From the NCBI RefSeq assembly GCF_009914755.1, contig NC_060927.1: a DNA stretch of 64,000 bases, one strand, 5' to 3'. Source of the DNA: the human T2T-CHM13v2.0 reference genome, Homo sapiens. The notes beneath the pieces are model-generated. The model was not told the origin of the DNA. It worked only from the letters and a program-made list of their open reading frames with translations, and did no database searches. A program made the position numbers and the translations under genes. Below, in pieces: positions 2,536-61,605 of this stretch. The first letter of the stretch is position 1, and each line of letters opens with the position of its first letter.

Positions 2536-3509
2536 TAAATAACTATTATCTAGGTGCTCACACATAAATTATTTTATGTAAACTATTGGCAAAGTTTAAA
2601 TAATTTTGGAAGTGCATGTCCTTTAAAGCCTCACTACTCAACATGTAGTCCATGGATAGGCAGCATCAGCATCACCCGGAAGCAGGGCCTTGTGGCTGGT
2701 ACTACAGGCCAGCCTCATCTTGCAGGGCCAGTTTCCCCAGACCTTGTGTGATGTGTGATGTTGACCACCATAGATGGGCCCTGAGTTTCCTGGGAGAAGT
2801 CACCCAACCCAGTCCCATCGTGTGCAGGATCCAAGAGGCTGGGCCTAGTGACCCACAGAAGACCTGGATGAGGCCAGGAAGCACTCTTTTTTCATAGTGG
2901 AGGGTTCTGCAAGGGAGTGATGTGGCATGAATGAGGTACGTTTGCATTCTGTGGGCCTGCAAGGGTTGGAAGTAGCCTTTGCCAGCTGAACATCAATTTC
3001 TCCACTGTGGGAGAGGATCTGAGGGTCTCGACTTATCTTGCTCAGGTCCAGAGTCACCTCTTGCAGCATCCCTTTTCCCCTCCTCTTACCCACTAGTGGG
3101 TGCCAACCAGGATTTAGGTGTCAACTAGGCCGGGCGTGGTGGTTCACACCTGTAATCCCAGCACTTTGGGAGGCTGAGAGGGGCAGATCGCTTGAGGCCA
3201 GGAGTTCGAGACCAGCCTGGGCAACAAAGCAAAACCAAGTCTCCTCAATACAAAAATCAGCCGGATATGGTGGTGCGTGCCCATAGTCCTAGTCTGCTGT
3301 TCAGGGAGAAGTTCTGGCTGGAGCTGTGTTATAAAGGTGGGGGCATTAAGAAACTAAGGGGCTGAGGGGGCTGGCAGTCGACTCCTCTGCCTTCCTGAGC
3401 CTCCAGACCCGCCCTCTGATGGCCCCCAGTTTCTCTTCATGGTTCCTACCCACCCAGAGCCTGACTCATTGGTCTCCTTACCCCACATCAAACCAGTCCA
3501 GCCTCTCTC

Positions 3510-3990
3510 TAACACTTTATTCATTCACTCATTCACTTAATCATTTTTTTCAGAAATGCTTTATTAAGCCTTGCTTGTGGTTCTCTCCCAAGGATGGGCA
3601 GCCCCCTTTGGGGGTGTCCGGATATGTGAAAGGGCATTTGGTTGTCACGTGACTGGGCAGGGAGCAGAGGTGTTCAGGTCCCTCACAAAACAAACTGCCT
3701 CTCAGGATGCCAGGAGCACCTTATAGAGAACCTTGTTCCACAGCCACCTACAGCTGGTTTAGGAGGGTGCGCTGTGAGCCAACACAGTACTGTCTGAACA
3801 GTGAGAGTAAAAAGATAAGGGAAGGGCATTTCTACCTGGGAGAGGAGAGAGGCTTCCTGGAGGAGGTGACTTTTGAGCTGTGCCTTGAAGGATGAGTAGG
3901 GTTTACAGATACAGGATGCGGCAGGAATTCCAGGCAGAGGAAAGCAGGTGTGCGAAGGCAGAGGAGTGTGGACAGGCTTAGAGTTTTGGG
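3510..3990 (-). mobile_element. L2 3' end remnant, probably interrupted by a MER20-like piece
   Basis: TTCATTCACTCATTCA tail and typical L2 sequence GGCTTCCTGGAGGAGGTGAC..TTGAGCTG..CCTTGAAGGATGAGTAGG. Confidence 0.7.
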
Positions 3991-4108
3991 GGCTCTCTAA
4001 AAGGGACACCCCCGGACTGTGCAGGACAGGGGTGCTGAAGGCCCCAGAGTGAGCTGGACAGGTGGGGAAAGGGAGGTCTGTGGCAGGCCTCCCCTCCCTT
4101 TTCCAGCC

Positions 4109-4248
4109 CTAGAAATGACTTAGGATGTTGGTAATGGTGTCTACTTGACTTTCTCATATAGGTCCCTGACCACAGGTGGTAGCTTGGTGTTCCCAGGCTG
4201 GGAGGAGGGCATGGCTGCCTCAGAGGACCCACAACTCCCTGGAGGCAC
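4109..4248 (-). pseudogene. NGP-like pseudo-exon 4 (C-terminal region)
   Basis: Acceptor cttctgcag|GTG. Reads VPPGSCGSSEAAMPSSQPGNTKLPPVVRDLYEKVK, then a 1-bp deletion creates TAG at 4143-4141; the shifted frame gives DTITNILSHF* (TAG 4111-4109). Confidence 0.9.
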
Positions 4249-4901
4249 CTGCAGAAGCTACGCTGAATAGTCACCACCATCACCGTCACTGACCGACCCC
4301 TCCCTCAAGGCCTGGGTGAGGGGGCTGAGGCGCCGGCAGACAGGGCTAAAGGATGGGGCTAGAGGTGGCCACTAGGCTGAACCCCTTTCCCCAGATCCCA
4401 GAGGGCCCAGACTCTGAGACTTGTTTCCGTCCTGGCTGTTCTTCTCAATTGCCAGGAGGCTCCACTTCTGCCTCCAGTTTTCCCAAATGTGGGATTAAGG
4501 GGAGGGTGGGTTTCCAAGGAATCTCTTGGGGCCAGAGCCCAGGGTCCAGAGCACAGCCAGGGCCCTGAGAGCACCGAGCGCCCTCAGCCAGCCCGGACCC
4601 CTCCTCTTCGTCTCCTGCGGAGGACTAGCAACAACCTAGACCCTCGCATTCCCCACACACTACAGGCCTCCCCCTTCCCAACAGCTTGCGTTAAGTGCTG
4701 GATCCGCTCCTACTTTCCAGATGAGGAAACTGAGGCGCCATGCTCTAAATTGCTGGCCCAGGCGGCGGCACCCCAGTGGTCGGGAGGTAACCAGGCTAAA
4801 GCCGCCGGCGAGGGGAAGGACGGGATTCGCGGCGGAGTTTCAGGGAGGCGCGTCTGCAGGCTAGAGGAGGGACCCGGGGGACCACACCGGGGCGGGCTCA
4901 C

Positions 4902-4976
4902 CTCTGACTCGCGCCGGGATCTTTGTTGGAACCGAGTGTCAGGAATCGCAAATACCGCGTGAAGAATTCCCCCGTG
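4902..4976 (-). pseudogene. NGP-like pseudo-exon 3, gene-orientation copy (5' end lost)
   Basis: ACG GGG GAA TTC TTC ACG CGG TAT TTG CGA TTC CTG ACA CTC GGT TCC AAC AAA GAT CC CGG CGC GAG TCA GAG|GTGAG. Confidence 0.8.
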
Positions 4977-4980
4977 GCCA

Positions 4981-5063
4981 ATCTGCACGGGAGAATGCTT
5001 CACGCTGGGCCATTTGCGGTTCCTGACCCTCGGTTGCAACAAAGACCCCGGCGCGAGCCACAG
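4981..5063 (+). pseudogene. Inverted second copy of NGP-like exon 3
   Basis: Reads ICTGECFTLGHLRFLTLGCNKD/RREPQ|GTGAG. Keeps both exon-3 cathelin cysteines. Confidence 0.8.
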
Positions 5064-5314
5064 GTGAGCCTACCCCGGTCCGGGCCACCCACCCCGAGAA
5101 TGGCAGGACTGCCCGAGCCCAGGACCCCGGCCGTCCAGGGAGGCCGGAGCCTGGAGGGCCGTGTAGACCCATGGGAATCCCATGCCCCACTGTGGTATTT
5201 TCCCCTAAGTCATCCTCAAACCATAGACGCAAGCCAGAGCCAGGAGCGAGAGACAATCGCTAGGAAGAACCCCAGTGGACTAGATGCGCGTCCATTAAAA
5301 TAAAGGATGGCCAC

Positions 5315-5625
<311 letters not shown>

Positions 5626-5864
5626 GGTGTGTTCTCTTTATATAAATTTAGTAATTTTTAAAGTATGTATTGCTTTTATAAATAAGGATTTGCAATAATT
5701 TGTAGCAAGAAAAAACAATGAGAAAAAATCAGATTTTTTCCACATTCGAACCTCAGGTGAAGTGATCAGGTGAGGTGGGTGGAGGCAGACACACATCTTC
5801 TTTAGAGCAAGAGAGGAGGGGACCTTTTGCTCACAGGGCTGGGAGCTGGAGGGATGAAGACTCA

Positions 5865-5945
5865 GCTGCCCTCCCTGAAGGCACATTTTTGGGGCCATCT
5901 CCCAGCTGGAAATGCATACTATCTCTTTAATCCTAAAGCTGAGTT
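5865..5945 (-). pseudogene. NGP-like pseudo-exon 2 (cathelin FRIKET.C...C.F motif)
   Basis: Acceptor ttttttgttgcttctttag|AAC. Reads SFRIKEIVCISSWE then WPQKCAFREG after a frameshift. Donor degraded (..AGCTGAGT). Confidence 0.9.
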
Positions 5946-6880
5946 CTAAAGAAGCAACAAAAAAGTCATGATCATCTCCCTTTTACAGGTGAGGGAACAA
6001 AGGCACCGAGAGGTTAAGGTTACACAGCTGGAAGGGTCTTACCCCAGGTCTGCACTTTTCACCAAAGCCAGGGGGCTTGTTAAGTAGTCTCAGCAGAGGT
6101 TTAAGGTGCTTCAGCTTTTGGAAAGTAGCCAAAGGATACCGCTTACTAACTGTACAACCCTGAGGGGTCATGATATAGTTTGAGCGTATCTTCCTGCCAA
6201 ATCTCATGTTGAATTGTAATCCCCAGTGTTGGAGGTAGGACCTGGTAGGAAGTGTTTGGATCATGGAGACTAATCCCTCATAAATGGCTTGGGCCATGCT
6301 CTTGGTGATAAATGAACTCTTGCTCTGAGTTCACACAAGATCTGGTCATTTAAAAGTGTGTGGCAACTCCCCCTCCATTCGCTCTCTTGTTTCTGCTTTC
6401 ACCATGTGCCTGTTCCCACTTCACCTTCCACCATGATTGCAAGCTTCCTGAGGCCTCCCTGGAAGCCAAGCACATGCCAGCACCATGCTTCCTATAAAGC
6501 CTGCAGAACTGTGAGCCAGTTAAACTTCTTCTCTTTATAAATTACCCAGTCTCAGGTATTTTTTTTAATATAGCAATGCAAGAACGGCCTAATACAGAAA
6601 ATTGATAGCAAGGATTGGGGCATTACTATAAAGATACCTGAAAGTGTAGAAGTGACTTTGGAACTGGGTAACAGGTAGAGTTTGGAAGAGTTTGGAGGGC
6701 TCAGGCCGGGCATGGTGGCTCACACCTGTAATCCCAGCACTTTCAGAGGCTGAGGTGAGCAGATCATCTGAGGTTGGGAATTCAAGACCAGCCTGGCCAA
6801 TATGGTGAAACCCTGTCTCTAACTAAAAATACAAAAATTAGCCAGTCATGGTGGCACGTGCCTGTACTCCAAGCTAATCA

Positions 6881-10563: not shown

Positions 10564-11721
10564 TTAAAAATTAGCCAGGCATGGTGGTGGGTACCTGCAA
10601 TCCCAGCTACTCCAGAGACTGAGGCAGGAGAATCACTTGAACCTGGGAGGCAGAGGTTGCAGTGATCCGAGGTCGCAGTGATCCGAGGTCGCACCATTGT
10701 ACTTCAGCCTGGGCAACAAGAGTGAAACTCTGTCTCAAAAAAAAACAAAAAACAAATAAGATTTTAGGGGACTGTTGTAAAGGCATAATTGTATTTTGCA
10801 ATGTGAGAAGGACATGAGATTTGTGGGGGCCATGGGCAGAATGATGTAGTTTGACTGTATGTCCCTACCAAATCTCATGTCAAATTGTAGTCCCCAGTGT
10901 TGGAGGTAGAGCCTGGTGGGAGGTGTTTGGATCATGGGGGTGGATCCCTTATGAATGACCTGGGCCATCCCCTTCATGATAAGTGAGCTCTTTCTCTGAG
11001 TTCCCACAAGATCTGGTAGTTTAAATGTGTGTGGCACGTCCCCTCCACCTTGTTCCTGCCTTCACCATATGACGTGCCTGCTCACCTTTCACCTTCTGCC
11101 ATGATGGCAAGTTTCCTGACGCCTCCTCAAAAGCCAAGCAGATGCCAGGACTATGCTTCCTATAAAGCCTGCAGAACTGTGAGCCAATTAAACCTCTTTT
11201 CTTCATAAATTACCAAATCTCTGGTATTTCTTTATAGCAATGCAAGAACGGCCTAATACAAGTCACTTCCTGTCTTTGTCCCTCAATTTCCTCCTCTGTG
11301 TGAGGAAACAGGAAGAAGAATCCCTGCCCTGCGTATTCAGCTGCCACGTGAGGTAATAGTGCAGGAAGGGGAAACCGGAAACCCCCAAAGGTGTTGGTGA
11401 GACCAGTTCCCTTCCTGTCTGTCCTCTGAAACAGCTCTGCATATTCCCCCAAGCCCAGGACCTGAGTATAGTCTGGATCCCCAGACTTCGCTGGATGAAG
11501 CTCTAAATTTACCAGCCAGCTGGCTTTCAGGCCCAAGATTACTATCTTGTCTTACCTTCAGGTGAGAGAAACATTATAATAACATCAATAACGAACAGTA
11601 ACCAAGCACTTGGTGCCTGTGCCAGGCATTCTCTCCTGCCAGCCATCCTTACAGGTATGAGGCAGGTAATACCTGCTTCCCCACTGTCTCCTACCCAAGC
11701 CTGGGCCCTTGAGACACTCAC

Positions 11722-11880
11722 CGACCTAGCTAATGGGATGGCCTCCAGCAGTGGAAACGGGACTTTCCCAATTATCCCCATGGTAGATTTTTAAGGCCTG
11801 GGTGACAATCTCATAGCTCAACAGCACTGGGCCACCACTGTCAAGCCTGCCAACACTCACGCCCTCCAGGCCCCTGCCAT
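11722..11880 (-). pseudogene. NGP-like pseudo-exon 1 (signal peptide and start of cathelin domain)
   Basis: ATG at 11880-11878, premature TGA at 11859-11857, two frame changes, intact donor TCG|GTGAGT (GT at 11721-11720). Confidence 0.9.
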
Positions 11881-11904
11881 TATCCCTTCTCTGATAGACT
11901 GCCA

Positions 11905-11948
11905 CTTTTAGGAAGAAGAGATGTGTAACTTACTACTCTTTATATATA
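11905..11948 (-). promoter_or_regulatory. Remnant core promoter of NGP-like gene (TATA-like)
   Basis: TATATAAAG on - at 11946-11938, about 60 nt upstream of the ATG. A second TAAAAG at about 11910-11905. Confidence 0.45.
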
Positions 11949-12021
11949 GATATTAGAATTCATCTCTTGAAATGATACACATTTTCTAACACCCCCAAAA
12001 TGCCAGTAAGAATGATTAAAG

Positions 12022-26516: not shown

Positions 26517-29500
26517 TAATCCCAGCACTTTGGGAGGCTGAGACAGGCAGATTGCTTGAGCCTAGGAGTTCAAGACCAGCCTGGGCAACATGGCAAAAAC
26601 CCATCTCTACAAAAAATACAAGAAAAAATTAGCCAGGCCTGGTGGCACACGCCTGTACTCCAGCCACTAGGGAGGCTGAGGTTGGAGAATTGAGTGAGCT
26701 CAGGAGGCCAAGGCTGCAGTGAGCCGACATCACACCATTGCACTCTGGCCTGGGCAAACAGAGCAAGACTCTGTCTCAAAGAAAAAAAAGTCTTCCAGAA
26801 ACAAGCTCTTCTAAGATGCTGGAAGAACTGGCAAAATTTTTCTTTCTCTTTAAATAAATTATTTGCAAGGTCTTATATTTTATTTTTTTTAAACTGTGGT
26901 AAAATATACCTAACAAAGTTTACAATTTTTCTTTTTTTTTTTTGAGACAGAGTTTCGCTCTTTGTTGCCCAGGCTGGAGTGCAATGGCACAAATCTTGGC
27001 TCACCGCGACCTCCGCTTCCCGGGTTCAGCGATTCTCCTGCCTCAGCCTCCCGAGTAGCTGGGATTACAGGCATGCACCACCAGGCCCGGCTAATTTTGC
27101 ATTTTTAGTAGAGATGGGGTTTCTCCCTGTTGGTCAGGCTGGTCTTGAACTCCCAAATCAGGCGATCCACTCGCCTTGGCCTCCCAAAGTGCTGGAATTA
27201 CAGGTGTGAGCTACCGTGCCCAGCCACAAAGTTTACAATTTCAAGCATACAGTTCAGTGGCATTAAATTGTTCAGATTGTTATACAGCCATTAAACAGTA
27301 ACTCTCCATTCTCCCCTCCCCTAGCCCAACAGACACCATTCTACTTTCTGTCTCCATAACTCTGACTAACTAGGTATCTCAGATAAGCAGAATACAGTAT
27401 TTGTCCTTTTGCAACTGGCTTATTTCACTTAGCATAATGTCTTCAGGGTTCATTCATGTTGCAGCATGTAACAGAATTTCATTCCTTTTTAAGGCTGAAT
27501 AATATTCCATTGTATGTACACACATCATCTTTATTCATGCATCCATCCATCACTGCACGGATTGCTTCTCTTTTGGCTACTGTGAAATGGTACTGCTATG
27601 AACATTCATGTAATTTCATTTTCTTCTGCTCTAACTCCAACTGGAATGAAGCTAGGCCCTTGACTAAGTCTTGAAAGGGTTTGAGGTCTCACAACAAAGG
27701 GACCTGGGCTCTACCTTGTGGGTGAAGCCTGTCTTAGAATCCCAGATCCCACCCACATCCCACGGTCTCCATAATTTTTCTTTTTCTTTTCTTTTTTTTT
27801 TTTTTAACACATGGTTTCACTTTTGTCGCCCAGGCTGGAGTACAATGGCACAATCACGGCTCACTGCAACCTCTGCCTCCCGGGCTCAAGGTTCCTCCCG
27901 CCTCAGCCTCCTGAGTAGCTGGGACTACAGGCGTACATGAGCCACCATGTCCTGCTAATTTTTATATTTTTTGTAGGGACGGGGTTTGGCCATGTGGGCT
28001 AGGCTGGTCTTGAACTCCCGGGCTTAAGCGATCCGCCCGCCTCGGCCTCCCAAAGTGATGGGATTACAAGCGTGAACCACCGCACCCGGCATCGTGGTCT
28101 CCACATTTCATCCAGAACGAGTCAAAGGCCTTGACCTCGAGCTTAACACGGACCTGAACCTTTGCTCTTCCCTTGTTTTCCCTTATCAGTAAACAGCCCC
28201 ACAGCCACCCACCTGCACAAGCCAGAAGCTTGGAAATCATATTCGACGTCCTCATGCCCTTACATCCATCCATTCCAAGTTCTGATACTTTTGTCTCCAA
28301 AATATTCCTCAAATATTTCTCAAAGTGGGCAAAATATTTCTTTGCTCACTTTTTACTTCCCTCTGCTCCAAGCCACAATCACCTGTCTCCTGGAAGACTA
28401 CAAAAGGCTCACTGATCTCCCAGCTCGCACTTTTGCACTCACTATCTCCAGGCCATTCTCTGTTATTTCTATTGTTACTATTATTATTTTGAGACGGAGT
28501 CTCGCTCTGTCGCTCAGGCTGGAGAGCAGTGGCAAGATCTAGGCTCACCGCAATCTCCGCCTCCCAGGTCAAGCGATTGAACCTCCAGCCTCAGCCTCCC
28601 GAGTAGCCTATTATTTATTTCTAAAAGTAGGTGATACAGCCATATGATTTAACAATTCCTGCTCTATAGGTCCCCTCTCCAGAGGCAACAGGTGCTCTCC
28701 ATTCCGTGGTCTCCTTCCAGATACTGTGGGCGTCCCTGGGTGCTCACCTGGCCGTATACCTTCCCCCACCCACTTCCCCACAGGGCCCGGGGCCTCCTCA
28801 CTCCGCTTGAGACCCTCCATCCAGGCGCTCCCTCCCTATCGTCCGTCTCCCTTGGGCACTGCCCGGCCTCCCAGGCTGGGCTGAGTAGGCCAGTCTCCGG
28901 TCAGTGATTCTGTTCCAAAGCTCGAAAGCCTTCGCAGCACTGGGACTGAAACCCCCAGCTCTCAGCCCCGACTCCTTCAGGCCAGGTGCTCCCTCCGCAC
29001 CCTCTCTAAGGCCCGTTTTCGCGTCATCTCTTTCCAGCGGCCCGCCCGCCACGTCATCTCTACCACAGCACCAGTCCTCCACGGCTCTTGACAATACGTG
29101 GGAGGGCAAGTTCATAGGTGAGGTCTCATGCTCTTCCTAGGAGGGAGGAGCGCGGCGGGCGGGACCCGCAGCTGGGCTTGGCCCGGGAGCGGGGAATAAG
29201 CTCGCTCCGCGCCTCTCAGTTTAGTGGATGAAGACTACTATCCCAGAAGCCGTTTCGCCTCGGGCTGGCGAGCTCCTCCCCGCCCTACTCCCTCCGCGCG
29301 AAGAAGACTGAGCATGCGCAACAGGGACAGCGCCTGCGCAAAAGACTACGCGAGCGGGTGGCTGGGTTCACTGCAACTCCCGGCAGGCCGCTGGCATTTT
29401 TCATTCCCTCCCGTGACCAGTGACTTCCGGCACGAAGGGGCGGGGCTGGGCTCGTGGCTGAGCCAGCAGCTGCAGCAGCTACGGGAGTGGCCGGGTGGCC

Positions 29501-29517
29501 GGCGGGTGCCAGCCGCC

Positions 29518-61605
<32,088 letters not shown>

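What the first reader, a model, noticed from the sequence alone, without database searches (positions are those of the whole stretch)
4886..5079. NGP exon 3 exists as a fold-back inverted duplication forming a ~190-bp palindrome
Seen: arms of 91 and 94 nt, about 85% identical, with a 9-nt spacer GCCAATCTG containing CCAAT. Each arm is a copy of exon 3 ending in an outward-pointing AG|GTGAGCC donor. The gene-orientation copy has lost its acceptor and first codons, while the inverted copy keeps I-C and the second Cys. Inference: a template-switch or fold-back event (or head-to-head fusion of two paralogs) disrupted the gene. The result can form a long GC-rich RNA hairpin from either strand or a DNA cruciform. 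Its symmetric CCAAT plus two divergent U1 sites resembles a bidirectional promoter or enhancer.
Basis: partly seen in the sequence, partly recalled or inferred. Interest (0 to 1): 0.82.

Follow-up and report, generated by a model that had tools for sequence, protein, structure and literature searches.

The report
Palindromic relic of dead NGP exon
A 214-base imperfect palindrome between KLHL18 and PTPN23 is most likely an old back-to-back duplication of one exon of NGP, a neutrophil gene that primates have lost; it lies in an unannotated CpG island, but nothing here shows that it does anything.

Summary
The arms are 4876-4976 and 4986-5089, with the 9-nt spacer GCCAATCTG between them. They match at 85 of 101 aligned bases plus one 3-nt indel (score 64; shuffles 11.2 +/- 1.25). 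Each arm ends in AG|GTGAGCC pointing outward.

It is single-copy in the T2T genome. A second palindrome in the same window is a dispersed repeat with 6610 candidates, so this one is not a MITE.

NGP origin is probable but not formally proven:
- It sits where marsupial NGP orthologues sit, on the same minus strand.
- The right arm keeps C-x16-C.
- A ten-residue motif taken from marsupial NGP exon 3 hits only these arms in 527,916 translated residues.
- An NGP-like C-terminus lies 340 nt downstream on the minus strand.
- Against this, Pfam, PDB and CAMP searches do not recognise the arms.

My first "exon 2" overlaps a SINE and is not counted.

New here: the palindrome is the core of a 562-bp CpG island (o/e 0.72; window 0.26). 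CpG sites in the arms diverged no faster than other sites.

That the fold-back killed the gene is not shown. The promoter idea is untested. Modest interest.

The parts
4876..4976 (-). Left arm. This is the gene-orientation copy of NGP exon 3: exon part 4976-4902 (75 nt) plus the first 26 nt of intron 3 (4901-4876). The acceptor, first codons and both Cys are lost.
4977..4985 (.). 9-nt spacer GCCAATCTG with CCAAT at 4978-4982. Its last 5 nt (ATCTG) continue the exon reading of the right arm (I, C).
4986..5089 (+). Right arm, the inverted copy. Exon reading runs 4981-5063 (83 nt) and keeps C-x16-C. It is followed by 26 nt of copied intron 3 (5064-5089).
5064..5069 (+). 5' splice-site-like CAG|GTGAGC of the right arm.
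   Evidence: read directly
4896..4901 (-). 5' splice-site-like GAG|GTGAGC of the left arm.
   Evidence: read directly
4626..5187 (.). CpG island around the palindrome: 562 bp, G+C 64%, CpG observed/expected 0.72, 42 CpG. No gene or functional element is listed here in the RefSeq table supplied.
4432..4564 (-). Probable NGP exon-4 remnant, reading ..KRFLGNPPSP*SHIWENWRQKWSLLAIEKNSQ. It has an in-frame TAA and has lost the terminal stop. The limits are approximate.
   Evidence: compared by eye
5866..5946 (-). Exon-2-like stretch (LSFRIKEIVCISS..C and, one frame over, CAFREG). It is ambiguous because its 5' part overlaps the end of a SINE alignment. It is not counted as evidence.
   Evidence: for; against
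5926..6050 (-). Fragment of a dispersed SINE. I recall the name MIR; no call named it.
4708..4736 (-). Core of a second copy of the same SINE, inside intron 3 and inside the CpG island.
   Evidence: E 5.1e-05
5347..5627 (-). Alu-type insertion in what would be intron 2. It shows as sub-threshold matches to the SRP RNA model.

Best explanation
The palindrome is a relic of the neutrophilic granule protein gene (NGP, a cathelicidin relative), which primates have lost. The dead gene lies on the minus strand between KLHL18 and PTPN23.

At some time in or before early primate evolution, about 109 nt were copied in inverted orientation directly upstream of themselves. The copied piece ran from the codon before Cys3 of exon 3 to 26 nt into intron 3. 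This is the product expected of a replication template switch or of fold-back priming at a break. It left a 9-nt loop and removed the exon's acceptor and first codons.

Shown: the geometry, single-copy status, position and strand. Inferred: the mechanism and the date.

The element has no coding role today. The most likely present state is a neutral relic. It lies in a stretch that has kept its CpGs, probably because it is unmethylated in the germ line (inferred from CpG retention, not measured).
For: Geometry:
- Arms 101 and 104 nt, 84% identical, far above chance.
- Homology ends 26 nt past each donor. No further inverted homology exists between 3500-4875 and 5090-6600 (best E 0.12).

Not a repeat family:
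- A whole-genome DNA search finds only the locus and its own inverse, from 1 first-look candidate.
- The flanks and the exon-4 remnant are single-copy.
- The positive control, palindrome 46257-46565, gives 6610 candidates and 85 matches.
- A SINE model built from 23 independent copies does not hit the arms.

NGP identity:
- Koala and opossum gene tables put the NGP orthologue on the minus strand between KLHL18(+) and PTPN23(+)/SCAP(-), as here (supplement of PMC12006171).
- The right arm has C-x16-C, like CAMP exon 3.
- Cys3 codon to donor is 80 nt. That fits musk-deer NGP exon 3 (93 nt less 4 codons = 81), not CAMP (60 nt).
- The motif C-T-[GA]-x(1,2)-F-T-x(3,4)-R-F-x(4,6)-C-[NQV]-x(0,1)-D occurs 1 time in 527,916 six-frame residues of 264 kb, and that hit is the right arm. 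Without the two Cys it occurs 2 times, which are the two arms.
- The left arm's FTRYLRF matches koala FTRLTRF at 5 of 7 positions.
- The exon-4 motif PP..HI[YW]EN..I.KN occurs once, 340 nt downstream on the same strand.

Age: K2P distance 0.179, or about 40-90 My at 2.2 to 1.0e-9 per site per year.
Against: - No profile or alignment search recognises the arms as cathelicidin. Pfam gives 0 families for the right arm and one weak chance match (YsdD, E 0.16), not cathelicidin, for the left. The PF00666 genome scan has no hit in the window. PDB gives none. tblastn with CAMP exon 3 gives none on the arms. BLASTP against gorilla CAMP gives only 6 residues at Cys4, E 0.19.
- I widened the motif ranges after seeing the human sequence, and I made the marsupial comparison by eye.
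- Ungapped identity to marsupial exon 3 is low.
- Exons 1 and 2 are not securely found. The exon-2-like stretch overlaps a SINE.
- Differences between the arms lean to third codon positions (6 of 10 up to 7 of 11; dN/dS 0.21-0.28; P 0.04-0.08). If real, this means coding constraint acted after the split, which a gene-killing fold-back does not predict.
Confidence: 0.68

Rival explanations
1. Same origin, but the element is now used. The CpG island with its central CCAAT and two outward 5' splice sites would act as a bidirectional promoter or enhancer. Alternatively, a transcript through it would give a long hairpin RNA that is edited or diced.
For: - CpG island 4626-5187 has o/e 0.72 against 0.26 for the window. 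The only stretches in the 64 kb that hold as many or more CpGs are two overlapping ones at the PTPN23 promoter, 28961-30200.
- 8 CpG positions are intact in both arms, out of 9 scored per arm. CpG nucleotides diverged at 3 of 20, non-CpG at 13 of 81. This argues for long-term germ-line hypomethylation.
- The island also covers a SINE copy that has gained CpGs.
- There is a GGGCGG at 4890, the CCAAT at 4978, and an AATAAA at 5299 downstream on the + strand.
- The hairpins are very stable.
Against: - The supplied RefSeq table lists no gene, lncRNA or functional element between KLHL18 and position 10791.
- No Rfam family matches at E <= 1.
- One CCAAT and one GC box are expected by chance.
- GC-biased gene conversion could also build a CpG-rich patch.
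- No expression, methylation or chromatin data could be consulted.
Confidence: 0.12
2. The arms are exon 3 of two paralogous NGP genes that lay head to head and were fused by deletion.
For: - Marsupials carry several NGP and NGP-like genes in both orientations in this interval.
- dN/dS of 0.21-0.28 between the arms would fit divergence of two working genes.
Against: - Homology stops 26 nt past both donors instead of running on through intron 3.
- There is no second exon-4 motif on the + strand.
- Both breakpoints would have to fall within about 5 nt of the same exon position.
- In koala the first two cathelicidin genes after KLHL18 run + then -, so they converge, whereas these arms diverge.
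- A paper states that eutherians have a single NGP (PMC12006171, passage seen).
Confidence: 0.07
3. The palindrome is a single-copy inverted duplication of non-genic DNA, and its likeness to NGP exon 3 is chance.
For: - No statistical search recognises it.
- I was misled once in this same locus by a cathelicidin-like reading that overlaps a SINE.
Against: Several independent coincidences would be needed: position and strand, C-x16-C, ten motif residues in order, a strong donor at the NGP-type distance, and an NGP-like C-terminus downstream.
Confidence: 0.1
4. It is a palindromic non-autonomous DNA transposon (MITE).
For: The shape alone. A true palindromic repeat does occur in the same window.
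Against: - Single copy in 3.1 Gb, by DNA and six-frame protein search, with a working positive control.
- G+C is 64%.
- No target-site duplication is visible at 4868-4875 against 5090-5097 (read).
Confidence: 0.03

Closest known systems
NGP (neutrophilic granule protein; mouse Ngp, rabbit p15, cow and musk-deer NGP, marsupial and platypus NGP orthologues), a cathelicidin-related gene
   Same: - Interval KLHL18-PTPN23 and the minus strand.
- Exon 3 of NGP type: about 93 nt, with C-x16-C.
- An NGP-like conserved C-terminus in an exon-4 remnant.
   Different: - The gene is dead. Exon 3 is present twice, back to back, with no acceptor.
- The gene-orientation copy has lost both Cys.
- The exon-4 remnant has an in-frame stop.
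- Exons 1 and 2 are not securely identified.
- The one paper passage I saw calls NGP 'absent in dogs and primates' (PMC12006171) and does not mention a remnant.
Template-switch or fold-back inverted duplications (replication-based mutation class; recalled from the literature, no paper read here)
   Same: An inverted copy lies directly beside its source. The loop is short (9 nt). The copied segment is sharply bounded. Source sequence is lost at the junction.
   Different: At about 109 nt it is longer than the short template-switch events I recall being described. It is old (16% arm divergence). Junction microhomology cannot be judged after that much decay.
Orphan CpG islands (CpG islands away from annotated promoters; a recalled concept)
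   Same: It meets the usual sequence criteria (562 bp, G+C 64%, o/e 0.72) and lies about 9.6 kb from the nearest annotated gene end.
   Different: No evidence of transcription start, of chromatin marks or of the unmethylated state itself was available.
Human CAMP (LL-37 precursor), the one working cathelicidin gene, 0.88 Mb away on the same chromosome
   Same: Cys3-x16-Cys4 spacing in exon 3, and a GTGAG-type donor.
   Different: CAMP exon 3 is 72 nt, with only 2 codons after Cys4. Apart from the shared cysteine spacing the only similarity to the arms is a six-residue match around Cys4, E 0.19.

Membership tests
NGP / cathelicidin family, exon 3 | Lies in the conserved interval between KLHL18 and PTPN23, on the strand opposite to both | tested here: met
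   The hub annotation gives KLHL18(+), PTPN23(+) and SCAP(-). Koala and opossum tables put the NGP orthologue on (-) between them. The gene-orientation arm and the exon-4 remnant are on (-).
NGP / cathelicidin family, exon 3 | Third and fourth cathelin cysteines spaced C-x16-C within exon 3 | tested here: met
   Met in the right arm, as in CAMP exon 3 and the koala, opossum and platypus NGP orthologues. Not met in the left arm, where both Cys are lost.
NGP / cathelicidin family, exon 3 | NGP-type exon length (93 nt) ending in a canonical donor | tested here: met
   Cys3 codon to donor is 80 nt in the right arm and 77 nt in the left. About 81 nt is expected from musk-deer NGP exon 3 and 60 nt from CAMP. 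The donor is AG|GTGAGC in both arms. The length is one base short of a multiple of three.
NGP / cathelicidin family, exon 3 | Significant match to the Pfam Cathelicidins profile PF00666 | tested here: not met
   No PF00666 match for either arm. The genome scan has no hit in the window. A 28-residue decayed exon may be too short for this test.
NGP / cathelicidin family, exon 3 | Alignment to exon 3 of a eutherian NGP | not testable with these tools
   No eutherian NGP sequence could be fetched. One search found no shared words. One search returned 22 primate-type CAMP proteins only (18 named for primate species, 4 unnamed). Searches returned 3 unrelated repeat proteins. I compared marsupial and platypus orthologues by eye and by motif only.
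NGP specifically, not a classical cathelicidin | Conserved C-terminal region (..Y-E-x-A-K-Y-D-I-I..I-L-[KR]-N-F in the orthologues seen) | tested here: inconclusive
   The remnant reads PPSP*SHIWENWRQKWSLLAIEKN. The loosened motif is unique in 527,916 residues, but the motif was fitted after the fact and identity is about one third.
Palindromic DNA transposon (MITE) | Many dispersed copies in the genome | tested here: not met
   1 candidate, itself, against 6610 candidates for the control palindrome.
Palindromic DNA transposon (MITE) | Target-site duplication flanking the arms | tested here: not met
   The flanks agggaccc and caccccga do not match (read). The decay of an old element weakens this test.
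Fold-back / template-switch inverted duplication | An inverted copy adjoining its source, with a short loop and a bounded copied segment | tested here: met
   9-nt spacer. Homology ends at 4876 and 5089. Nothing further lies in the flanks.
Fold-back / template-switch inverted duplication | Second arm absent in outgroup species | not testable with these tools
   No other mammalian genome is held.
CpG-island promoter or enhancer | Meets the CpG-island sequence criteria | tested here: met
   4626-5187: 562 bp, G+C 64%, o/e 0.72, 42 CpG.
CpG-island promoter or enhancer | Transcription start, open chromatin or an annotated element | not testable with these tools
   None is in the RefSeq table supplied. 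No CAGE, chromatin or methylation data were available.

The most novel reading that the evidence does not exclude
A dead immune-gene exon, folded back on itself, became the core of a primate orphan CpG island that has stayed unmethylated in the germ line for tens of millions of years. With its central CCAAT box and two outward-facing 5' splice sites it would now work as a bidirectional promoter or enhancer, or as the source of a roughly 100-bp hairpin RNA. That would make it a regulatory element built from a template-switch mutation in a pseudogene.
Probability: 0.12. Interest if true: 0.6.

Novelty: new member of a known kind. Interest (0 to 1): 0.33.

Why it matters
- If the orthology is confirmed, "NGP is absent in primates" can be replaced by a dated, lesion-by-lesion account of how the gene died.
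- It is an unusually long and old example of a fold-back (template-switch) duplication that can be read base by base.
- CpG sites in the arms diverged no faster than other sites. That makes the two arms an internal clock for long-term germ-line hypomethylation of an unannotated CpG island, which public methylation and CAGE data can test directly.
- As it stands it is a well-defined curiosity, not a demonstrated functional element.

Tried and rejected
**Profile and structure look-ups on the arms**
- Pfam on 17 ORFs and then on 109 minus-strand ORFs gave nothing for the arms. Of the 109 ORFs, 10 had some weak family hit (E 0.03-0.7), so the single PF00666 hit (E 0.25) is not significant alone.
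- PDB sequence search found nothing relevant.

**"Exon 2" at 5979-5866 and "exon 1 end" near 6043**

I first accepted these on three grounds: Pfam E 0.25, CAMP tblastn E 0.003, and BLASTP E 6e-05. I then found the following.
- The core 6019-5968 recurs elsewhere in the genome at 85-92% identity.
- The register of other copies runs on into the stretch.
- An independent 23-copy model aligns to 6035-5931, E 1.6e-10, ending near 5926.

On the other side, 5966-5850 alone gives no hit to an earlier model. Three marsupial-derived exon-2 motifs hit only here within 1-29000. I leave the stretch unresolved and uncounted.

The equal-scoring CAMP exon-2 hit at 11369-11425 I take as chance. The three sub-threshold PF00666 hits elsewhere in the genome are not SINE copies at the hit sites.

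**Fetching NGP orthologues**
- The exon-2-like piece shared no three words with any protein.
- CAMP exon 1 returned 22 primate-type CAMP proteins, 18 of them named for primate species. This shows the library holds mammals but gave no NGP.
- phmmer against 1.84 billion representatives returned 3 tandem-repeat proteins.
- The arm alignment was too short for the tool and I did not pursue it.

**Other**
- Head-to-head paralogue fusion and MITE origin were examined and judged unlikely.
- The bacterial promoter scan was not used, because it does not apply to human DNA.
- Literature searches found no description of a human NGP remnant. That holds for those term sets and that library only. The bioRxiv supplements were closed.

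Full report
**1. The observation**

The inverted repeat is real and slightly larger than reported.
- The repeat finder gives two collinear inverted blocks: 4876-4953/5012-5089 (78 nt, 85%) and 4957-4976/4986-5005 (20 nt, 90%).
- One gapped alignment joins them into arms 4876-4976 and 4986-5089. It has 16 substitutions (8 transitions, 8 transversions) in 101 columns and one 3-nt indel.
- The score is 64, against 11.2 +/- 1.25 (maximum 16) for 200 shuffles.
- The spacer is GCCAATCTG.
- Both arms end in AG|GTGAGCC pointing outward, with introns starting at 5064 (+) and 4901 (-). Homology continues 26 nt past each GT with 6 differences, then stops.
- Single-strand folds are extreme: RNA -161.4 and -177.6 kcal/mol, DNA -94.4, z about -15 to -17, and 0 of 200 shuffles fold as well.

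**2. It is not a repeat family or an artefact**
- A whole-genome DNA search with 4870-5095 finds the locus and its own inverse only, from 1 first-look candidate.
- A six-frame protein search finds itself, the other arm (68% identity, E 2.7e-04) and one chance hit (E 5.9).
- The flanks 4560-4875 and 5090-5300 and the stretch 4370-4570 are single-copy.
- As a positive control, the other large short-spacer palindrome in the window (46257-46565) gave 6610 first-look candidates and 85 matches at 71-81% in both orientations. The tool therefore does see MITE-like families.
- In 264 kb (the window plus 200 kb of flanks) an ungapped scan listed 8 inverted repeats with arms >= 50 nt and spacer <= 80 nt. 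Four of the eight lie in one TA-rich simple repeat. The rest are L030:5746-6044, L027:9253-9405, the control repeat and this one. I did not examine L030 or L027.
- Rfam has nothing on the palindrome at E <= 1.

**3. What the arms come from**

The evidence for NGP exon 3 is circumstantial but comes from several directions.
- *Position and strand.* The supplement of PMC12006171 lists koala as KIF9(-), KLHL18(+), two cathelicidins, the NGP orthologue PhciCath6(-), PTPN23(+), SCAP(-), ELP6(-). Opossum is alike, with ModoCath8(-) (passages seen). The human window has KLHL18(+) upstream and PTPN23(+)/SCAP(-) downstream. The arm that reads toward the exon-4-like remnant is on the minus strand.
- *Cysteines.* The right arm reads ICTGECFTLGHLRFLTLGCNKDPGASHR. 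It has C-x16-C, the spacing of Cys3-Cys4 in CAMP exon 3 and in the three NGP orthologues shown.
- *Length.* Cys3 codon to donor is 80 nt. Musk-deer NGP has exons of 180/102/93/141 nt (supplement of PMC6719980), which gives about 81 nt if four codons precede Cys3, as in the marsupial sequences. CAMP gives 60 nt.
- *Exon-3 motif.* I took ten residues from the marsupial exon 3 as a motif: C-T-[GA]-x(1,2)-F-T-x(3,4)-R-F-x(4,6)-C-[NQV]-x(0,1)-D.
  - It occurs once in 527,916 six-frame residues, and that hit is the right arm.
  - Without the cysteines it occurs twice, which are the two arms.
  - The bare core F-T-x(3,4)-R-F occurs 4 times, 2 of them the arms.
  - I widened the gap ranges after seeing the human sequence, so these counts overstate the significance.
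- *Exon 4.* About 340 nt downstream on the minus strand lies ..KRFLGNPPSP*SHIWENWRQKWSLLAIEKNSQ. It resembles the conserved NGP C-terminus seen. Its loosened motif is unique in the same 527,916 residues, while its six-residue core occurs 4 times.

I translated the two dasyurid coding sequences by eye.

**4. Evidence against, and a false start**

No statistical search recognises the arms.
- Pfam finds no cathelicidin match for either arm.
- The PF00666 genome scan finds only the three CAMP exons above cut-off, plus three weak hits elsewhere.
- PDB gives nothing.
- tblastn with CAMP exon 3 gives nothing on the arms.
- BLASTP against gorilla CAMP aligns only LGCNKD to ISCDKD, E 0.19.

I could not fetch any eutherian NGP.

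I also first accepted an "exon 2" at 5979-5866 (LSFRIKEIVC..C), on Pfam PF00666 E 0.25, CAMP tblastn E 0.003 and BLASTP E 6e-05. I then saw that it follows the core of a dispersed SINE.
- That core recurs at 85-92% identity in four other places.
- A model built from 23 independent copies aligns to 6035-5931, E 1.6e-10, ending near 5926.
- Other copies carry GGATTAAA in the same register.

Against the SINE reading, three marsupial-derived exon-2 motifs hit only this spot within 1-29000: FRIKEIVC, KE..C-x10-C, and CAFRE one frame over. The 3' half is not aligned by the SINE model. I leave it open and do not count it. A second core of the same SINE lies at 4736-4708 (E 5.1e-05), inside intron 3.

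**5. How it arose**

The copied unit runs from the codon before Cys3 to 26 nt into intron 3 (4981-5089, about 109 nt). It sits inverted, directly upstream of the gene-orientation copy, and is separated from it by four bases of unknown origin. The gene-orientation copy begins only at the codon after Cys3, so the acceptor and first codons are gone.

This is the footprint of a template switch or fold-back event (inference). A fusion of two paralogues is unlikely because homology ends symmetrically 26 nt past both donors, the flanks share nothing more (best E 0.12), and there is no second exon 4.

The K2P distance between the arms is 0.179. That gives roughly 40-90 My for rates of 2.2 to 1.0e-9 per site per year, and it is a lower bound if the arms ever converted each other.

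**6. Did it kill the gene?**

This cannot be told from one genome.
- Both arms share a Cys4-to-donor distance of 26 nt, which is not a multiple of three. CAMP and musk-deer NGP have phase-0 exons. A shared 1-nt indel may therefore predate the duplication.
- Yet the exon frame, a phase-2 junction and the exon-4 remnant after an AG at 4566-4565 stay in one frame (read), a 1-in-3 coincidence.
- Differences between the arms lean to third codon positions (6 of 10 up to 7 of 11, depending on gap placement). dN/dS is 0.21-0.28, P is 0.04-0.08, and an approximate Fisher test gives P 0.12. That hints at some coding constraint after the split, on tiny numbers. I record it as unexplained.

**7. The CpG island**
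- The stretch 4626-5187 (562 bp) has G+C 64% and CpG o/e 0.72, with 42 CpG. The window as a whole has o/e 0.26.
- The only stretches in the 64 kb that hold as many or more CpGs are two overlapping ones at the PTPN23 promoter, 28961-30200.
- In the gapped arm alignment each arm has 9 CpGs and 8 positions are shared.
- CpG nucleotides differ at 3 of 20 and other nucleotides at 13 of 81, which is the same rate. In methylated DNA, CpG transitions run about tenfold faster (established knowledge). If only 20-40% of CpGs were expected to survive in both arms, 8 or more of 10 has P 8e-05 to 0.012.
- The island also covers the SINE copy in intron 3, which is full of CpGs. The property is therefore regional, not a leftover of the exon.

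The simplest reading is long-standing germ-line hypomethylation. GC-biased conversion is an alternative. RefSeq lists nothing here, and I had no expression or chromatin data.

**8. Verdict**

The origin from NGP exon 3 by fold-back duplication is probable (about 0.7 for the whole account). The claim that the event disrupted the gene is unproven, and any function is untested.

It is a new example of known kinds: a unitary pseudogene, a template-switch duplication and an orphan CpG island. The searches found no description of a human NGP remnant. One paper passage calls NGP "absent in dogs and primates" (PMC12006171).

What I saw of each paper:
- PMC12006171: passages and supplement passages.
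- PMC6719980: one passage and one supplement passage.
- PMC3978490, PMC12002115 and PMC3347324: passages only.
- All others: search listings only.

Noticed in passing
window 46257-46565: A 300-bp palindrome (122-nt arms, 84%, 65-nt spacer) that belongs to a large dispersed family. The genome search gave 6610 first-look candidates and 85 matches at 71-81%, matching in both orientations. It looks like a MITE-type DNA transposon and lies about 400 nt before the RefSeq 'silencer' at 46951-47132.
   Followed up: partly
window 4626-5187: An unannotated CpG island (562 bp, o/e 0.72, 42 CpG). The only stretches in the window that hold as many or more CpGs are at the PTPN23 promoter. It covers a SINE copy that has gained many CpGs as well as the palindrome.
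   Followed up: partly
window 5866-5946 (-): This stretch reads like NGP exon 2 (LSFRIKEIVCISS..C, then CAFREG after a frame shift), yet it begins inside the alignment of a SINE. It is either a real exon abutting a SINE fragment or a striking chance likeness. It produced a false-positive-looking Pfam cathelicidin hit (E 0.25).
   Followed up: partly
window 6043-6102 (-): ..KPLLRLLNKPPGFGEKCRPG|GTAAGA resembles the end of a cathelin exon 1 with a good donor, only about 96 nt upstream of the exon-2-like stretch. Pfam does not support it, and it abuts the same SINE.
   Followed up: partly
window 4904-4975 (-) against 4987-5061 (+): Differences between the two arms lean to third codon positions. 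dN/dS is 0.21-0.28 over 24 codons, P 0.04-0.08. This is unexplained if both copies have been dead since the duplication.
   Followed up: yes
window 4908-5303 (+) and 4381-4962 (+): Stop-free frames of 131 and 193 codons run through the palindrome and the CpG island on the + strand. The 131-codon frame ends at the AATAAA at 5299. No family matches either frame. They are probably an effect of the G+C-rich composition.
   Followed up: no
window 11369-11425 (+): tblastn with CAMP exon 2 gives GKPETPKGVGETSSLPVCP, E 0.002, inside the RefSeq enhancer 10791-11990. I take it as chance.
   Followed up: no
L016:4840-5250 (T2T chr3:47,332,840-47,333,250, in KLHL18): A TA/TG-rich simple repeat about 400 bp long that forms many overlapping inverted repeats.
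   Followed up: no
L030:5746-6044 (T2T chr3:47,537,746-47,538,044): Another inverted repeat with 118-nt arms, 89% identity and a 63-nt spacer. Its nature was not examined.
   Followed up: no
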